From positions 64,001 through 101,641 of IMG/VR virus record IMGVR_UViG_3300012347_000366: a stretch of DNA of 37,641 nt. One strand, written 5' to 3'. Source of the DNA: a virus. Its lineage: Duplodnaviria; Heunggongvirae; Uroviricota; Caudoviricetes. The notes beneath the pieces were generated by a model. That model made no database searches and was not told the DNA's origin. It saw nothing but the letters and a program-made list of their open reading frames with translations. The position numbers and the translations under genes are program-made. Position 1 is the first letter of the stretch, and every line of letters starts with the position of its first letter. Below are positions 26,587-37,418 of the stretch, piece by piece.

Positions 26587-26970
26587 AATTTTCTTTTAAA
26601 TTTATAGTCGAAGTTACATTATAACTCAAACAGTACTCCACGACAAGTCAAAATTTATATGATCTGCGCCAATACCACAAAAAATTTTGGCGTTGACGGA
26701 AAGCTACTTGGGTGCTATAATAAACCATCGAATATTATAGGTGTTTTATGACATTTAGCGAATACATTGCACGTCATGCTTACTACTCGTACTTAGAGTA
26801 TTGCAGACAAAACTATTTAAAACCTGAAGTAGACATTAAACTTACGGAGCCAAAGCTATGTGCATTGGTAAAATCTCCTGTTGACAAAACCGGTTAAATC
26901 ACTTATAATGAATGTTCGCCGACCCTATAAACCAGGGCCAAGTCAAATTGCCCGATACAAAGCTAACACA

Positions 26971-27444
26971 ATGCCTAAAACCGAAGACCTAACACAAACA
27001 CTAGAACATCAAACAGTATTTGGGGAATTTCCCACAAATGCTGATAGAGCAGCAATTAAACCAATTCCAGACAATGTACAAATCCCACCAGAAACAATTG
27101 CAGCAATCCAAAAACAGTTTGGTACAGCACTAAAGTTTGATGGTGAGAAGCTTCCACTTAACTTGCTTAGTACTGAAGCAATGAATCAAACAGCCGCAGT
27201 GCTAAAGTTTGGTGCACAAAAGTACGCAGAACACAACTGGCGCAAGGGCTTTGCCTGGAGCCGACCCTTAGCCGCAGCAATGCGACATATTACAGCTTTC
27301 AATAATGGTGAAGATCGTGACCCTGAATCGGGCCTATCGCACCTTGCTCACGCAGCCTGCTGTATTATGTTCCTTCTTGAATTTGAGAAAACCCACCAAC
27401 ACCTAGATGACCGATACAAACCAGATGTACAAGCGACTAACTAA
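26971..27444 (+). CDS. dATP/dGTP diphosphohydrolase (DUF5664-like)
   Basis: KFDGEKLPLNLL...VLKFGAQKYAEHNWRKG...AAMRHI...GEDRDPESGLSHLAHAACC. Confidence 0.85.
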   Translation: MPKTEDLTQTLEHQTVFGEFPTNADRAAIKPIPDNVQIPPETIAAIQKQFGTALKFDGEKLPLNLLSTEAMNQTAAVLKFGAQKYAEHNWRKGFAWSRPLAAAMRHITAFNNGEDRDPESGLSHLAHAACCIMFLLEFEKTHQHLDDRYKPDVQATN

Positions 27445-27640: not shown

Positions 27641-27684
27641 ATTTATATTTGATTGTGTGAGTTAGTTTTGTTATAATTGTGGCT

Positions 27685-28692
27685 ATGACATATTTTAATC
27701 AAACTATCAATCGCGTTGGCTTTGCCTGCAAAATTCAATCTGACCATGATACAGCTAATTCAGACCTGAATACCAAGTCTACAACTATCAGCTATCTTGC
27801 TCGTCAGACTCCGGACGCTGCTCGTGCCAAGCTGTGGGGTTTGCTTGACCACAATCTTAATGCGTTCTATCGTCAGCTTAAATATGTTGCTAAACTGCCG
27901 CACAATCAGCGTATGTTTCGTATCACATCAGACTTGCTGCCAGCGTATACTCATGATGACTATATGCCGTTTTATTTCCAGTCTGATGTTGTTGCCAAGA
28001 TTGAAGCTCACCTGAGTATGTGTGGCGAGTTTGCTCGTCTTCACGATATTCGCCTTAGCTTCCACCCAGGTCAGTTTTGCGTGCTTGCATCAGAAAATCC
28101 TGGCGTTGTTGAGAATTCAATTACCGAGTTCGAGTATCATGCAGACTTGATTCGTTATATGGGTTACGGCCAGAAGTTTCAAGACTTCAAGTGCAATGTG
28201 CACGTTGGCGGTAAGCTAGGCCCCAATGGTATCAAAGCTGCCATGCGTAGACTCTCACCCGAAGCACGCAACACCCTAACAATCGAAAATGCCGAGTTCA
28301 CCTGGGGTCTTGATGCCTCTCTAGAACTGGTAGATACCTGTGCACTTGTTCTTGACATTCATCATCACTGGATTAATTCAGGTGAGTACATTGAACCTAC
28401 AGATCCTCGTTTCAAGCGTGTTGTAGACTCGTGGCGCGGTGTACGTCCAGTGATTCACTATAGTGTTAGCCGCGAAGATTGCTTGGTTGACCACGACCCA
28501 ACCGTTCGACCAGACCTTAAGGCGCTAAAGTCTAGCGGTTTTACAGCTGCTAAATTACGTGCTCACAGTGACTACTACTGGAATTCAGCAGTAAATGACT
28601 GGGCCTTGACATTTAGTCCATTTGCCGATATAATGTGTGAATCAAAACAAAAAAATCTGGCAAGCACACAGCTTGTTAAACAATGCACTTAA
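27685..28692 (+). CDS. uvsE: UV-damage endonuclease (UvsE/UVDE)
   Basis: FRITSDLLP, RLSFHPGQF, EFEYHAD, NVHVGG, LTIEN, VLDIHHHW, HYSVSR, RAHSD motifs. Confidence 0.9.
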   Translation: MTYFNQTINRVGFACKIQSDHDTANSDLNTKSTTISYLARQTPDAARAKLWGLLDHNLNAFYRQLKYVAKLPHNQRMFRITSDLLPAYTHDDYMPFYFQSDVVAKIEAHLSMCGEFARLHDIRLSFHPGQFCVLASENPGVVENSITEFEYHADLIRYMGYGQKFQDFKCNVHVGGKLGPNGIKAAMRRLSPEARNTLTIENAEFTWGLDASLELVDTCALVLDIHHHWINSGEYIEPTDPRFKRVVDSWRGVRPVIHYSVSREDCLVDHDPTVRPDLKALKSSGFTAAKLRAHSDYYWNSAVNDWALTFSPFADIMCESKQKNLASTQLVKQCT

Positions 28693-32836: not shown

Positions 32837-32913
32837 TATTTAAACACACTCGTCATTGTCGGATGATAGAGGGGAGACCGAACATCTTGCCCGCGTAGTG
32901 TGTTTAAATATGG
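32834..32913 (+). ncRNA. Stem-enclosed candidate ncRNA
   Basis: Perfect 17-bp closing stem around a 46-nt core. Confidence 0.55.
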
Positions 32914-32920
32914 TATTAGC

Positions 32921-33018
32921 GAATAATATAGATACTTCACTCACCAAAACTCCGAGTACCGCAGGAAGGCTGCAAGCAGGGTTCGACTCCCAGGGCAATA
33001 CACTATATTAACTTATTC
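32921..33018 (+). ncRNA. Y-RNA-like element with T-loop
   Basis: Terminal stems GAATA/TATTC and AATATAG/CTATATT, GATACTTC motif, GGG-TTCGACT-CCC T-arm. Confidence 0.55.
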
Positions 33019-33033
33019 TATACAATTTTTTAC

Positions 33034-34555: not shown

Positions 34556-34630
34556 GGACATATAGCACAGCGGTAGTGCAGCGTCTTCATACGGCGTTGG
34601 TCGCTAGTTCGAATCTAGCTATGTCCACCA
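34556..34630 (+). tRNA. tRNA-Met(CAT) elongator (or Ile2)
   Basis: Cloverleaf, loop TTCATAC, CCA. Confidence 0.9.
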
Positions 34631-34763
34631 CTAAAAATTCAGACTTGTTTTGTATATCAAAAGTCTGTATAATTAATGTTTTAGCGGCAAGAACAATAAT
34701 ACAATGAACAGATTCTGAAATTTGTACTTGTTCTTGCCACTATTTTCAAGTATAATTTATACT

Positions 34764-34946
34764 TAAATTAAACACTTTGGCTATAGTGATAGAAGCCAGT
34801 TACTTCATAACTCGAGCTGTATGCCCTTGTGGCACACAAAAGGTGGTAGCCACACACTTTAAACCGTGCAAACGTCTTAGGTGATGTAGACGCTAAACAA
34901 TTCCAGAAACTGCTTTCGCAGGTTCTTAGCCAGTGTGTTTAATTTA
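34764..34946 (+). ncRNA. Stem-enclosed RNA upstream of Ro60 gene (Y-RNA candidate)
   Basis: Begins just after promoter -10 at 34751; about 20-bp closing stem; CCAGTTACTTC motif. Confidence 0.55.
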
Positions 34947-34983
34947 GGTATAGTATCTTTCTTACTTATTTACAAGGAATCAA

Positions 34984-36294
34984 ATGTCTTCTATCAATCG
35001 TGTTGTGCGTAAGCCTGCTTTTAATTCAGTGGGTACGCAAGTGTCCAATGTTAATGCAGAACGCCAGCTAAAGCGTGTTACTCTTGCAGCTATGCTGTGG
35101 GAAAAGCAGTTTTATATGGACGGTAAAACTCATGCAGAATTGGTAAAGGACCTTGTTGCTAAAGTGTCGCCTGAAAAGGTTTCTGCTTTAGCTGAGGAAG
35201 CCCGTACGAAATTCAAACTTCGTCACATTCCTCTGCTGCTTGTTCGTGAACTTGCACGTCACGGTAAAATGCAAGCAAACGCTCTAACTTCGGTTATTCA
35301 GCGTCCAGACGAAATGTCTGAGTTCTTGTCAATTTATTGGCAAGAAGGCAAAACTGCTGTATCCAACCAAGTCAAAAAAGGCTTGGCAGCTTGTTTTAAC
35401 AAGTTCAACGAATACCAGCTTGCCAAATGGAACAAGAACTCTAACGCAATTCGTTTGCGCGATGTGATGTTCTTGAGCCACCCTAAACCGCAAAATGCTG
35501 ACCAAGCTGCACTTTTTAAGCGTATTGCCTCAGATCAGTTGGAAACACCAGATACCTGGGAAACTCAACTTAGTGCGGGTGCAGATAAGTGTGGTACGTT
35601 TACTCGTCTTATGACTGAGAAGAAACTAGGTGCTCTAGCTTTCTTGCGTAATCTGCGAAATATGCGCGACAGTGGTGTATCGGATTCCCTTATCCGAGCT
35701 TATGCACAAACTGTTGACGTTAGCCGTGTTTTGCCTTTCCGCTATATTGCGGCGGCTCGTATTGTCCCACAATACGAAGACATGCTAGAATCAATGATGT
35801 TTCGCAGTCTTGCGAATCATCAAAAAATTCCTGGTAAAACCGTGTTATTGATCGACGTAAGTGGCTCAATGTTCGGTACTCCAATCTCACAAAAATCAGA
35901 TCTAGAACGATTTGATGCGGCAGCAGCACTTGCTATGTTGTGCCGTGAAGTATGTGAGACTGTTGAGATTTATAGCTTTAGTAATAATGCTGTGCGTGTA
36001 GCACCTCGTCGTGGATTTGCTCTCCGCGAAGCAATCTCTAGTTCTCAAAGTCATGGTGGAACCGCCCTGGGCGCTTCCATGAAGACTGTAGACGGCATCA
36101 GTCAATATGACCGTTGCATTGTGTTTACTGATGAACAAAGCTATGATCGCCCAGGTGCTCCTCGTGGCAAAGGTTACATTGTTAATGTGGCCAGCTACCA
36201 AAACGGAGTTAACCACCAAGCATGGACTGAGATCAATGGTTTCTCAGAAGCTGTAATTGATTACATCCAAGCATTGGAGCAGGAAGCTGCTTAA
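34984..36294 (+). CDS. rsr: Ro60/Rsr TROVE-domain RNA-binding protein with vWA domain
   Basis: LWEKQFY.DG, KLRHIPL, IQRPDE, LRDVMFLSHPKP, TWETQLS, LGALAFLRNLRNM, RVLPFRY, LLIDVSGSM, GGT, VFTDEQ, VNVASYQNG. Confidence 0.93.
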   Translation: MSSINRVVRKPAFNSVGTQVSNVNAERQLKRVTLAAMLWEKQFYMDGKTHAELVKDLVAKVSPEKVSALAEEARTKFKLRHIPLLLVRELARHGKMQANALTSVIQRPDEMSEFLSIYWQEGKTAVSNQVKKGLAACFNKFNEYQLAKWNKNSNAIRLRDVMFLSHPKPQNADQAALFKRIASDQLETPDTWETQLSAGADKCGTFTRLMTEKKLGALAFLRNLRNMRDSGVSDSLIRAYAQTVDVSRVLPFRYIAAARIVPQYEDMLESMMFRSLANHQKIPGKTVLLIDVSGSMFGTPISQKSDLERFDAAAALAMLCREVCETVEIYSFSNNAVRVAPRRGFALREAISSSQSHGGTALGASMKTVDGISQYDRCIVFTDEQSYDRPGAPRGKGYIVNVASYQNGVNHQAWTEINGFSEAVIDYIQALEQEAA

Positions 36295-36356
36295 GTTACT
36301 TACCCACGACCCAAGCCTGTAGCCAGTCAGGTGTTATAAAGGTGGGGCTCTAAGCT

Positions 36357-36453
36357 AAGGGCTTAGAATAGCATATGGTGCTCTAGTACAGTTACTTCTA
36401 TTTGGTTTGAAAACACACTGTACTTAATTTTTCCTATGTTATTCTAAGCCCTT
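36357..36453 (+). ncRNA. Y-RNA-like element B
   Basis: 19-bp terminal stem, internal loop, AGTACAGT/ACTGTACT stem, GTTACTTC motif. Confidence 0.65.
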
Positions 36454-36519
36454 TGCGCTTTTATCGGTTACTTCTAGACTTTTAATCTAACCAAATCGCC
36501 GATAATACTTATTCAAGGG
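36449..36519 (+). ncRNA. Y-RNA-like element C with tRNA-Lys anticodon-arm mimic
   Basis: TTATCGG/CCGATAA stem, GGTTACTTC, TAGA-CTTTTAA-TCTA. Confidence 0.6.
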
Positions 36520-36530
36520 CTACTTTTTAT

Positions 36531-36657
36531 TGCTTTGGCGATAGTTACAGTTTCATCATAAGTTCGATTCTTATATTACGAGCATTTCGTTATTCGCCAA
36601 GTGGTATGGCACCGGGTGTTAAACCCCGGCAAACTCTGTAACGACTAATTCCAAGCA
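36531..36657 (+). ncRNA. YrlA-like RNA: circularly permuted tRNA on a terminal stem
   Basis: T-arm 36558-74, closed acceptor 36575-93, D-arm 36596-610, anticodon-like arm 36612-29, closing stems GTTACAG/CTGTAAC and TGCTTTGG/CCAAGCA. Confidence 0.75.
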
Positions 36658-36668
36658 TTTTATTCCAT

Positions 36669-36742
36669 GCGTCCCTGGTGTAATGGCAGCACGGCGGTCT
36701 CCAAAACCGTTAGTCAGAGTTCGAATCTCTGGGGGCGTGCCA
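36669..36742 (+). tRNA. tRNA-Trp(CCA)
   Basis: Loop CTCCAAA, G73, CCA. Confidence 0.95.
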
Positions 36743-36805
36743 AAATTTAAATTTGAATCTGTTTGCAATATGGGTTATAATTATTCTTTACAGCAAGGAA
36801 TAGCA

Positions 36806-37018
36806 ATGACAGCATTAGATTCAATTTCCAAACCTCTTGTAATCATGCCAGCATATGGTAGAACTTACAAAAACCGAGAAGAAGTTGTTGAAGCCTGGAA
36901 GTCTGGAAAAGATTTCAAGGTTGTTGGCGGCCCTTACTGTTCGATCAGAGATCTAGCAAAATTAGGTTGCAGTTCAGTTTGGATTGACTTAGTTACTTCG
37001 ATGATTAGGGTTGAATAA
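36806..37018 (+). CDS. Hypothetical 70-aa protein
   Basis: Promoter + AAGGA SD; PAYGR.YK...V...W..GKDF...GGPYCSIRD. Confidence 0.7.
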   Translation: MTALDSISKPLVIMPAYGRTYKNREEVVEAWKSGKDFKVVGGPYCSIRDLAKLGCSSVWIDLVTSMIRVE

Positions 37019-37067
37019 ATTTAGACTTGTTGTATCAATCAAAACTTGATATAATTATCTTTTAAAC

Positions 37068-37153
37068 GGAGAAGATGTTCTAATGGTAGGACAGCGGATT
37101 GTAAATCCGTGGCCTCACGAGGCAAGTGGGTTCGATCCCCTCCTTCTCCACCA
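37068..37153 (+). tRNA. tRNA-Tyr(GTA)
   Basis: Class II, loop TTGTAAA, CCA. Confidence 0.93.
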
Positions 37154-37159
37154 ATTTAT

Positions 37160-37243
37160 GCGACTGTGGTGGAATGGTATACACAGCAGACTTAAAATCT
37201 GCCGCTTAATTGATTAAGGGTTCAAGTCCCTTCAGTCGTACCA
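37160..37243 (+). tRNA. tRNA-Leu(TAA)
   Basis: Class II, loop CTTAAAA, CCA. Confidence 0.95.
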
Positions 37244-37418
37244 AGGCAAATAGTATTGCTGTAGTGGCGGTACTCAACGTTTGGTAGTTTCAATGGGTGC
37301 TATAGAAACTGCCACCAATCATATCAGTTTAGTCTAGTAAGGAAAGTAAACGGAGAATGGGCAAGTAAGCGCACTCTAAAGCGCAAGCTAGATACCTCAC
37401 CGGCTAGACAATTTATCT

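What the first reader, a model, noticed from the sequence alone, without database searches (positions are those of the whole stretch)
36531..36657. Complete circularly permuted tRNA grafted on a Y-RNA stem
Seen in order: closing stems, T-arm ATAAG-TTCGATT-CTTAT, 7-bp acceptor helix closed by a GCATT loop (one U.U), 2-nt linker, D-arm GCCA-AGTGGTA-TGGC, one A, then an anticodon-like arm CCGGG-TGTTAAAC-CCCGG with GTT (Asn). This is a whole tRNA opened at the variable loop. The 5' strand has GGCGATAG, close to the Ro-binding consensus recalled for YrlA. Known: YrlA RNAs contain a permuted T-acceptor-D module. Inference: this copy additionally keeps an anticodon arm, so it is either an evolutionary intermediate from tRNA-Asn to Y RNA or a non-chargeable full-shape tRNA decoy.
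Basis: partly seen in the sequence, partly recalled or inferred. Interest (0 to 1): 0.8.

Follow-up and report, generated by a model that had tools for sequence, protein, structure and literature searches.

The report
Phage Y RNA shaped like whole tRNA
This is a real small RNA gene just after a phage's Ro60 (Rsr) gene: a Y RNA whose tip is a back-to-front tRNA that also keeps a stem where the anticodon arm would sit. That stem carries no conserved anticodon, so the "tRNA-Asn" reading does not hold.

Summary
Observation confirmed.

The element lies 237 nt downstream of a TROVE+vWA Ro60/Rsr gene on the same strand. It has a bulged terminal helix with GGCGAUAG, one mismatch from the published YrlA motif GNCGAAN0-1G; two relatives carry GGCGAACG, which fits it. 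It is a Y RNA with a tRNA-like domain.

The extra hairpin after the D arm is real (5 of 5 pairs covary). It sits one base after the D stem, like an anticodon stem, and is absent from the Rfam YrlA consensus, which does not detect this element. Its loop, however, is 5-9 nt and differs between close relatives, so GUU/Asn is chance. The D and T arms resemble phage tRNA-Gln best.

Relatives carry a canonical YrlA upstream of rsr as well as this second type downstream; in this phage the canonical one is deleted.

Verdict: a new variant of a known kind. This scan reached a similar reading before on a related phage (e1-1879832).

The parts
34984..36294 (+). rsr: phage Ro60/Rsr protein gene (436 aa, TROVE + vWA), the presumed protein partner
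   Evidence: Pfam TROVE E 3.9e-10, VWA_2 and vWA_Ro60. Matches Thermus phage phiLo Ro60 structures 9KOP/9L5Y at E 8e-21 over residues 38-432.
36531..36657 (+). The whole element: a Y RNA with a permuted tRNA-like domain
   Evidence: CM hits at 143-151 bits. Covariation across 13 homologs.
36531..36538 (+). P1 5' strand with bulged U36536; pairs with 36651-36657
   Evidence: The first 7 pairs of helix 1 (P1 proper): 6 show changes on both sides across the 13 homologs (e.g. UGCUU-U-GG/CCAAGCA, AGUCG-U-AG/CUCGACU), 1 never varies. The remaining 4 pairs of that modelled helix lie in the internal loop and are poorly kept.
36537..36544 (+). GGCGAUAG, the presumed Ro60-contact motif
   Evidence: One mismatch from GNCGAAN0-1G of Chen et al. 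2014 (PMC4201824). L011 and L131 have GGCGAACG, which fits the motif.
36544..36550 (+). P2 5' strand; pairs with 36636-36642
   Evidence: Helix 2: 7 pairs, 100% paired, 6 with changes on both sides.
36551..36557 (+). Linker UUUCAUC: a variant of the family motif UUACUUC, holding the published YUAY; its last C lies at the tRNA position-48 place
   Evidence: Conserved 7-nt linker ending in C in all 13 homologs. G15 (36601) with C48 (36557) could form the Levitt pair; this is inference.
36558..36574 (+). T arm, AUAAG-UUCGAUU-CUUAU
   Evidence: Helix 3: 100% paired, 2 pairs covary; the loop UUCGAUU is the same in 12 of the 13 homologs (L015 has UUCAAUU).
36575..36593 (+). Closed 7-bp acceptor-like stem with loop GCAUU
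   Evidence: The four modelled pairs all covary. The loop begins GCCA in 4 homologs and GCC in 3 more, of 13.
36594..36611 (+). U8-C9, D arm GCCA-AGUGGUA-UGGC, and A26
   Evidence: Helix 5: 100% paired, 3 pairs covary. Among 438 phage tRNAs this D-arm signature occurs mainly in tRNA-Gln (4 of 6).
36612..36629 (+). Extra hairpin at the anticodon-arm position: 5 bp with the 8-nt loop UGUUAAAC
   Evidence: Helix 6: 5 of 5 pairs changed on both sides, 93.8% paired. Loop is 5-9 nt and not conserved.
36630..36650 (+). A-rich linker (CAAACU), P2 3' strand (36636-36642), and the 3' side of the internal loop (GACUAAUU)
36651..36657 (+). P1 3' strand, CCAAGCA
36448..36520 (+). Sister Y RNA with the same P1/P2/UUACUUC scaffold and a small apical hairpin (no tRNA-like domain)
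   Evidence: R2, 34.7 bits, E 2.4e-6.
36357..36452 (+). Sister Y RNA embedded in a long hairpin; present in most relatives examined
   Evidence: Scaffold hit 36371-36439 at 21.6 bits. Conserved in 16 of the 17 loci L001-L017; L015 has a divergent counterpart. Fold z = -4.1 for the whole spacer.
36669..36742 (+). tRNA-Trp, 11 nt after the element; probably defines its 3' processing
   Evidence: ARAGORN and Rfam. No promoter- or terminator-like site on the + strand between the rsr stop and tRNA-Trp; one weak minus-strand promoter-like match (9 of 12) at 36684-36657.

Best explanation
The element is a phage-encoded Y RNA: the tRNA-mimicking member of a tandem set of Y RNAs that serve the phage's own Ro60/Rsr protein.

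The two ends pair into a bulged helix (P1) followed by an internal loop carrying GGCGAUAG. By analogy with bacterial and Thermus-phage Y RNAs, this is where Rsr docks (inferred).

The apical domain is a circularly permuted tRNA. In order it has a variable-loop-like linker, T arm, a 7-bp acceptor helix closed by a short loop, U8-N9, D arm, A26, and then a 5-bp stem-loop at the anticodon-arm position. With GG in the D loop, UUCGAUU in the T loop, U8/A14 and G15/C48, it can form the tRNA elbow (inferred).

Unlike canonical YrlA, where the Rsr-binding stem itself plays the anticodon stem, here a separate hairpin fills that place. The Rsr-binding stem therefore leaves from the variable-loop side.

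The hairpin is kept as a structure, not as a decoder, because its loop is free to vary. The most likely role is as the effector or tether module of the Rsr particle: it presents a full L-shaped tRNA body to host tRNA-binding enzymes such as TruB, Dus and RNase P, and/or helps couple Rsr to an exoribonuclease such as PNPase during infection.

It is probably cut out of a transcript that also holds rsr and tRNA-Trp.

Its body most likely descends from a tandem tRNA pair of tRNA-Gln-like sequence. That would explain the permutation and the GCC(A) remnant in the acceptor loop.
For: Shown by tool results:
- Rsr gene directly upstream on the same strand.
- All six helices covary in 13 homologs.
- The same P1/P2/UUACUUC scaffold recurs next to rsr in dozens of viral loci and in cultured Xylella phage Usme and Microcystis phage Mvi-JY20.
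- Members of that scaffold with standard D and T arms are recognised by Rfam YrlA at E 8e-8 to 5e-4, which ties the scaffold to the published family.
- The motif fits GNCGAAN0-1G with one mismatch, and fully in L011 and L131.
- Re-permuted copies are called tRNA by ARAGORN in 13 of 13.
- The hairpin loop varies from 5 to 9 nt.
- The core is closest to phage tRNA-Gln.
- The acceptor loop starts GCCA or GCC in 7 of 13.
- No promoter- or terminator-like site on the + strand between rsr and tRNA-Trp.
- Contigs from four RNA libraries of one freshwater study span the element.

From the literature:
- YrlA mimics tRNA and is modified by TruB and DusA; a 7-bp acceptor makes M. smegmatis YrlA an RNase P substrate (PMC4201824).
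- Dimeric-tRNA origin model (10.1101/312249).
- Thermus phage Ro60 binds phage Y-like RNAs and host PNPase (PMC12135203).
Against: - No binding, processing or expression experiment exists for this RNA.
- The RNA-library contigs could come from DNA carry-over, and all are from one study.
- Rfam YrlA does not detect the element even at E <= 10.
- Its D and T stems differ from the 'nearly invariant' ones of canonical YrlA, so its effector may differ.
- Whether the extra hairpin stacks on the D stem, or whether P2 does and the hairpin is a side insertion, cannot be told from sequence.
- The tRNA-Gln likeness rests on short arms and on related, non-independent sequences. U1-A72/G73 points instead to tRNA-Asn in these phages.
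Confidence: 0.8

Rival explanations
1. Same Y RNA, different geometry. P2 is the true anticodon-stem equivalent, as in Salmonella YrlA, and the post-D hairpin is only a lineage-specific insertion into the D-to-P2 linker with no tRNA-like role.
For: - Other phage Y RNAs of this scaffold carry small hairpins after the D arm that end in GNRA tetraloops: GAAA in L072 and L081, GCAA in L058. These are certainly not anticodon-like.
- Some second-type copies (L068, L053) lack the hairpin.
- Canonical relatives have a 9-10-nt A-rich linker at that place.
Against: - The hairpin follows the D stem after exactly one A in all 13 copies, and its stem is 4-6 bp, as in tRNA.
- P2 is separated from both the hairpin (5-9 nt) and the T arm (7 nt) by long linkers, which favours stacking of the hairpin rather than P2.
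- All 5 pairs covary.
Confidence: 0.2
2. A genuine permuted tRNA gene (Asn or other) that is cut, rejoined or assembled into a decoding tRNA, as permuted tRNA genes are in some red algae.
For: - ARAGORN calls re-ordered copies tRNA.
- 7-bp acceptor, U1-A72, G73, and GCCA in some acceptor loops.
- The phage record shows no tRNA-Asn, tRNA-Gln or tRNA-Thr among its 23 tRNAs.
Against: - The loop is 8 nt here and 5-9 nt elsewhere; U33 and purine-37 are not kept, and the 'anticodon' differs between near-identical relatives.
- P1/P2 with the Ro-site motif are conserved and shared with sister RNAs that have no tRNA part.
- The position is tied to rsr.
- The record is 96% complete and its tRNA array runs off both ends, so the missing isotypes may simply lie in the gap.
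Confidence: 0.02
3. A decaying remnant of a tandem tRNA pair with no present function.
For: - Lies inside a tRNA array.
- GCC(A) relic in the acceptor loop.
- Some relatives lack the module: L006-L010, L012, L013, L017.
Against: - Compensatory changes in all six helices across Rsr identities of 61-94%.
- The D-loop and the P1 bulge are invariant and the T-loop is the same in 12 of 13.
- The CM scores 55-152 bits in 13 contigs.
Confidence: 0.03

Closest known systems
YrlA (Y RNA-like A; Rfam RF02553; S. Typhimurium, M. smegmatis, mycobacteriophages; Chen et al. 2014 PMC4201824; structure in Wang et al. 2018, 10.1101/312249)
   Same: - Encoded within a few hundred nt of rsr on the same strand.
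- Ends pair into a stem with a GNCGAA-type motif on the 5' strand.
- Apical domain is T arm, closed acceptor stem-loop, then D arm in that permuted order.
- tRNA-type D and T loops, U8, and a pyrimidine at the end of the variable linker.
- A 7-bp acceptor, as in M. smegmatis YrlA.
   Different: - No V stem-loop upstream of the T arm.
- An extra covarying stem-loop directly after the D arm, which the Rfam consensus lacks.
- D stem GCCA/UGGC and T stem AUAAG/CUUAU, instead of the near-invariant GCUC/GAGC and G/C-rich T stem.
- RF02553 gives no hit even at E <= 10, while it scores canonical copies in related phages at 35-48 bits.
- In relatives it coexists with a canonical YrlA, so it is a paralogous second type.
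D. radiodurans Yrn1 (Chen et al. 2014)
   Same: It was modelled with a T arm and a potential 5-bp 'anticodon arm' whose loop is not 7 nt.
   Different: [quoted passage not shown]
Thermus phage phiLo Ro60 with Yrl1 and Yrl2 (PMC12135203)
   Same: A phage-encoded Ro60 with more than one Y-like RNA next to the gene and a CGAA-type motif. This is the closest solved protein relative of the window's Rsr.
   Different: Yrl1 and Yrl2 lie upstream of the gene. The paper's main text never uses the words 'tRNA-like' or 'YrlA'.
Permuted tRNA genes of Cyanidioschyzon merolae and relatives (from my own knowledge, not checked here)
   Same: The 3' half lies before the 5' half, with the acceptor ends joined by a short intervening sequence.
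   Different: Those are processed into decoding tRNAs with proper anticodon loops. This element has no conserved anticodon loop and is embedded in a Ro60-binding stem.

Membership tests
YrlA-type Y RNA (Chen et al. 2014 definition) | Encoded within about 4 kb of a TROVE/Ro60 gene, on the same strand | tested here: met
   The rsr stop is at 36294 and the element starts at 36531, both on the + strand.
YrlA-type Y RNA (Chen et al. 2014 definition) | GNCGAAN0-1G motif near the 5' end | tested here: inconclusive
   The window has GGCGAUAG, with U for the second A. Homologs L011 and L131 have GGCGAACG, which fits.
YrlA-type Y RNA (Chen et al. 2014 definition) | T-like and D-like stem-loops with tRNA-type loops, separated by an acceptor-like stem-loop | tested here: met
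   UUCGAUU and AGUGGUA loops with a 7-bp closed stem between them; all three helices covary.
YrlA-type Y RNA (Chen et al. 2014 definition) | Nearly invariant T and D stem sequences across YrlAs | tested here: not met
   D stem GCCA/UGGC and T stem AUAAG/CUUAU, against the RF02553 consensus GCUC/GAGC and GCGGG/CCCGC (alignment).
YrlA-type Y RNA (Chen et al. 2014 definition) | Fourth stem-loop (V), when present, lies upstream of the T arm | tested here: not met
   There is only a 7-nt linker before the T arm. The fourth stem-loop lies after the D arm.
YrlA-type Y RNA (Chen et al. 2014 definition) | Bound by Rsr; modified by TruB and DusA | not testable with these tools
   Needs immunoprecipitation and modification mapping.
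Rfam RF02553 (YrlA covariance model) | Score at or above the gathering cut-off (69 bits), or at least a significant hit | tested here: not met
   No hit at E <= 10 in 451 nt, none in the whole phage record, and none on the homolog in L003. Positive control: canonical copies beside rsr in 11 related loci (10 viral contigs and one bacterial MAG) score 35-48 bits, E 8e-8 to 5e-4, also below the cut-off.
tRNA (functional, decoding) | 7-nt anticodon loop with U33 and purine 37, and a conserved anticodon | tested here: not met
   The loop is 8 nt here and 5-9 nt in homologs, and the triplet is not conserved.
tRNA (functional, decoding) | Free 5' and 3'-CCA acceptor ends in the gene order 5' half then 3' half | tested here: not met
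   The acceptor is closed by GCAUU, and neither ARAGORN nor Rfam tRNA calls the native sequence.

The most novel reading that the evidence does not exclude
This is a second, independently derived class of Ro60-linked tRNA mimic. A whole tRNA-Gln-like cloverleaf, made by a tandem tRNA duplication, was grafted through its variable loop onto the Y RNA handle. Because the acceptor is 7 bp and the loop often begins with discriminator-G plus CCA, RNase P and 3' trimming would turn it into a two-piece, CCA-ended full-shape tRNA held on Rsr. That particle would act as a decoy or sensor for host factors that recognise whole tRNAs, such as synthetases, modification enzymes or tRNA-targeting defence nucleases, during infection.
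Probability: 0.12. Interest if true: 0.75.

Novelty: new variant of a known kind. Interest (0 to 1): 0.45.

Why it matters
Y RNAs that mimic tRNA are known, but their effector partner and origin are still open questions. Three points follow from this variant.

- It shows that the tRNA-like tip is modular. The same phage lineage carries a canonical YrlA and a second type with different D and T stems and a retained anticodon-position arm. That argues that tRNA mimicry was acquired more than once on one Y RNA handle.
- The GCC(A) relic in the acceptor loop and the retained arm are what the published dimeric-tRNA origin model predicts. This gives that model a concrete intermediate-like example.
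- The second type escapes the Rfam model, and such RNAs are not annotated in the two cultured phages examined (Xylella phage Usme and Microcystis phage Mvi-JY20). Phage Ro60 particles with several Y RNAs are therefore probably under-counted.

Tried and rejected
- **Rfam scans.** The gathering scan of the window found only tRNAs. Permissive scans of the element found only chance miRNA and isrK hits. RF02553 on the whole record found nothing.
- **blastn against phage genomes.** A search with 36300-37300 matched only through the neighbouring tRNAs, so no cultured phage has a near copy.
- **Isotype of origin.** Whole-length comparison of re-permuted copies with 439 phage tRNAs gave different best isotypes per copy, driven by the loops. 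I therefore repeated it without the acceptor and loop. The anticodon-stem pattern NCGGN is not isotype-specific (87 of 438 tRNAs), so the stem itself cannot be assigned.
- **Expression.** Only assembled contigs of RNA libraries from one study were available. They cover the element, but depth cannot rank genes, ends cannot be read, and DNA carry-over is possible. I do not count this as proof of transcription.
- **Literature gaps.** The supplements of Chen et al. 2014 (their alignments and phage table) are not held, and the 2020 Annual Review is not held. I therefore could not check whether a post-D hairpin appears in their supplementary figures.
- **Bacterial loci.** The loci fetched with the Rsr profile (L019-L039) gave only canonical-type or tRNA-overlapping hits, but this is a small sample.
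- **Not attempted.** I sent no 3D prediction for the RNA and no protein-RNA docking.

Full report
**Setting**

The window is the last 37.6 kb of a 101.6-kb IMG/VR phage record that is 96% complete. The portal, terminase and capsid-protease genes are of tailed-phage type. The portal is about 39.5% identical to those of large (121-128 kb) Vibrio phages, the best matches, and hundreds of Salmonella and Escherichia phage records also match; I read these as T5-like from my own knowledge, in line with an earlier scan note. The record carries 23 tRNA genes at its two ends, 16 of them in the window.

Inside this tRNA array lies ORF 34984-36294 on the + strand. It encodes a 436-aa TROVE + vWA protein. 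Its closest solved relative is the Ro60 of Thermus phage phiLo (9KOP/9L5Y, E 8e-21). The finding starts 237 nt after this gene's stop codon, on the same strand, and ends 11 nt before tRNA-Trp.

The only correction is that the last loop is 8 nt (UGUUAAAC), not 7. Folding energy alone is not distinctive (z = -1.36).

I therefore collected relatives through the Rsr protein and through a DNA pattern for the T-to-D segment. A covariance model built from six copies found further copies, giving 13 distinct sequences. On their alignment:
- 96.3% of cells pair.
- 27 of 36 pairs have changes on both sides.
- No shuffle out of 500 reaches any measure.
- Sliding the partners drops pairing to 39-46%.

All six helices are supported. 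In P1 proper (the first 7 pairs of helix 1) 6 pairs covary; P2 has 6 of 7, the T arm 2 of 5, the acceptor 4 of 4 modelled, the D arm 3 of 4, and the extra hairpin 5 of 5. An unfitted MAFFT/RNAalifold run gave the same helices.

**What is it?**

The same terminal architecture recurs next to rsr in dozens of viral contigs. It consists of a 5-bp helix, a bulged U, two more pairs, a 5' loop strand of the GNCGA type, an inner 7-bp helix, then (G/A)UUACUUC. It also occurs in cultured Xylella phage Usme (five tandem copies upstream of rsr) and in Microcystis phage Mvi-JY20 (two copies downstream). In both records these RNAs are unannotated.

Many members read GGCGAAG, which is the published GNCGAAN0-1G motif (PMC4201824). 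Members whose apical part has standard D and T arms are recognised by Rfam YrlA (RF02553) at 35-48 bits. The scaffold is therefore the YrlA/YrlB Y RNA family.

In the window the scaffold occurs at least four times:
- 32912-33024
- 36371-36439, inside the long hairpin 36357-36452
- 36448-36520
- 36531-36657, the finding, which is the only tRNA-like copy

**The extra arm**

Canonical YrlA has V, T, AS and D stem-loops, with V upstream of T. In the crystal structure the Rsr-binding stem continues as the anticodon stem, and 'YrlA lacks the anticodon loop' (10.1101/312249). The Rfam consensus line shows the closing helix immediately after the D arm.

Here there is no V stem. A hairpin follows the D stem after a single A, which is the place of a tRNA anticodon arm. 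The hairpin is present in all 13 copies (Rsr identity 61-94% in the ten whose Rsr was matched; L129-L131 came from a DNA-pattern search), and a weaker version is in L016.

The loop, however, is not an anticodon loop:
- UGUUAAAC in the window
- UCUUAAAC in L001
- UGUGAAAG in L056
- ACUGAUAA in L004 and L005
- GCAUA in L003 and L011
- ACAUA in L131
- CUCAUAA in L067
- CUUGUAC in L129
- CGCACAC in L130
- CUUUAAAAC in L055
- UGCAUAG in L015

Other scaffold members carry post-D hairpins with GNRA tetraloops.

Doing so makes ARAGORN call a tRNA in 13 of 13 copies, but with seven different readings of the anticodon. The window's copy comes out as 'tRNA-???' with a 4-nt anticodon. GUU/Asn is therefore a chance reading.

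**Origin**

I removed the acceptor and loop and compared the remaining body with 438 phage tRNAs from the fetched loci. The body is closest to tRNA-Gln(UUG): mean z is 0.96, and 3-9 of the top 10 matches are Gln against a 6% background. Asn is at background, z = 0.04. The D-arm signature (4 of 6) and the T-arm signature (4 of 8) are mostly tRNA-Gln.

U1-A72 with G73, on the other hand, is typical of tRNA-Asn in these phages (17 of 20). The isotype of origin is therefore not settled.

The acceptor loop begins GCCA in four copies and GCC in three more. This looks like a discriminator plus encoded CCA followed by a spacer. It fits the dimeric-tRNA origin proposed for YrlA (10.1101/312249), and a tandem duplicate of one tRNA would yield exactly this permuted cloverleaf, including the second copy's anticodon arm.

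**A second type, not the ortholog of YrlA**

Relatives L003, L004, L005 and L011 have a canonical YrlA immediately upstream of rsr (RF02553 at 35 bits in L003) as well as this module downstream, which RF02553 does not see even at E <= 10. In the window and in L001 the canonical copy's interior is deleted, leaving only its terminal helix around 34944-34975. In this phage, therefore, the finding is the only tRNA-like Y RNA.

**Mechanism**

Shown: the structure, its conservation, and its linkage to rsr.

Inferred by analogy:
- Rsr docks on P1 and the GGCGAUAG loop.
- The tRNA-like domain forms an L-shape and is recognised by tRNA-binding enzymes.
- The 7-bp acceptor may allow RNase P cleavage, as in M. 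smegmatis YrlA (PMC4201824).
- The particle may recruit PNPase, as in D. radiodurans and Thermus phage phiLo (PMC12135203).

No promoter-like or terminator-like site lies on the + strand between rsr and tRNA-Trp; the only match there is a weak one on the minus strand. This suggests co-transcription and processing. Contigs from four RNA libraries of one freshwater study span the element, which is compatible with expression but does not prove it.

**Verdict**

The element is a new variant of a known kind. An earlier follow-up in this scan (e1-1879832) reached a similar reading on a related phage. I set my scores on the tests done here.

Noticed in passing
window 36296-36345: A small conserved hairpin directly after the rsr stop: CCCAC...GUGGG enclosing CCUG-UAGCCAGU-CAGG. 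The loop motif GUAGYCAGYC is kept in relatives L001-L013, L016 and L017 while the stems vary.
   Followed up: partly
window 32912-33024: A further Y-RNA-scaffold member between tRNA-Lys and tRNA-Ile, 2 kb upstream of rsr. It has a T-arm-like GGG-UUCGACU-CCC but no D arm. A similar copy lies at L016:4517-4629.
   Followed up: partly
window 34764-34943: A roughly 180-nt structured RNA upstream of rsr with CAGUUACUUC at 34797-34806. It is present in the window and L001 but replaced by other sequence in L003-L005. It was not detected by my models.
   Followed up: partly
window 34944-34975: Remnant of a canonical YrlA. Relatives L003, L004, L005 and L011 have a full YrlA here; in the window and L001 only the terminal-helix halves AGGUAUAGUA / UCUUUCUUACUUA remain.
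   Followed up: yes
window 34617-36678: Low-depth contigs in three RNA libraries join 34617 to 36678 with 26 other letters between. Some related phages therefore lack the whole rsr + Y RNA cassette between tRNA-Met and tRNA-Trp, making it an optional module of the tRNA array (tables 5 and 5c).
   Followed up: no
window 35100-36374: In the same four RNA libraries the contigs over rsr have word depths of thousands to tens of thousands, against 100-400 for neighbouring stretches. The tool warns that depth cannot rank genes, so this is only a hint of strong rsr expression or of many co-assembled relatives.
   Followed up: no
window 26881-27444 and 27679-28692: A dATP/dGTP diphosphohydrolase N-terminal domain protein and a UvdE UV-endonuclease are encoded just before the tRNA array. 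From my own knowledge, the first is the kind of enzyme seen in phages that modify their purines.
   Followed up: no
G000:C1:640-1089 (outside the window): ARAGORN calls a permuted tmRNA with tag ANDTQFALVA at the other end of the phage record, within the continuation of the tRNA array.
   Followed up: no
L134:1794-2403 (Xylella phage Usme) and L133:3893-4101 (Microcystis phage Mvi-JY20): Cultured phages carry five and two tandem Y-RNA-scaffold genes respectively beside rsr. None is annotated in the GenBank records. In Mvi-JY20, tRNA-Gln follows directly after them.
   Followed up: partly
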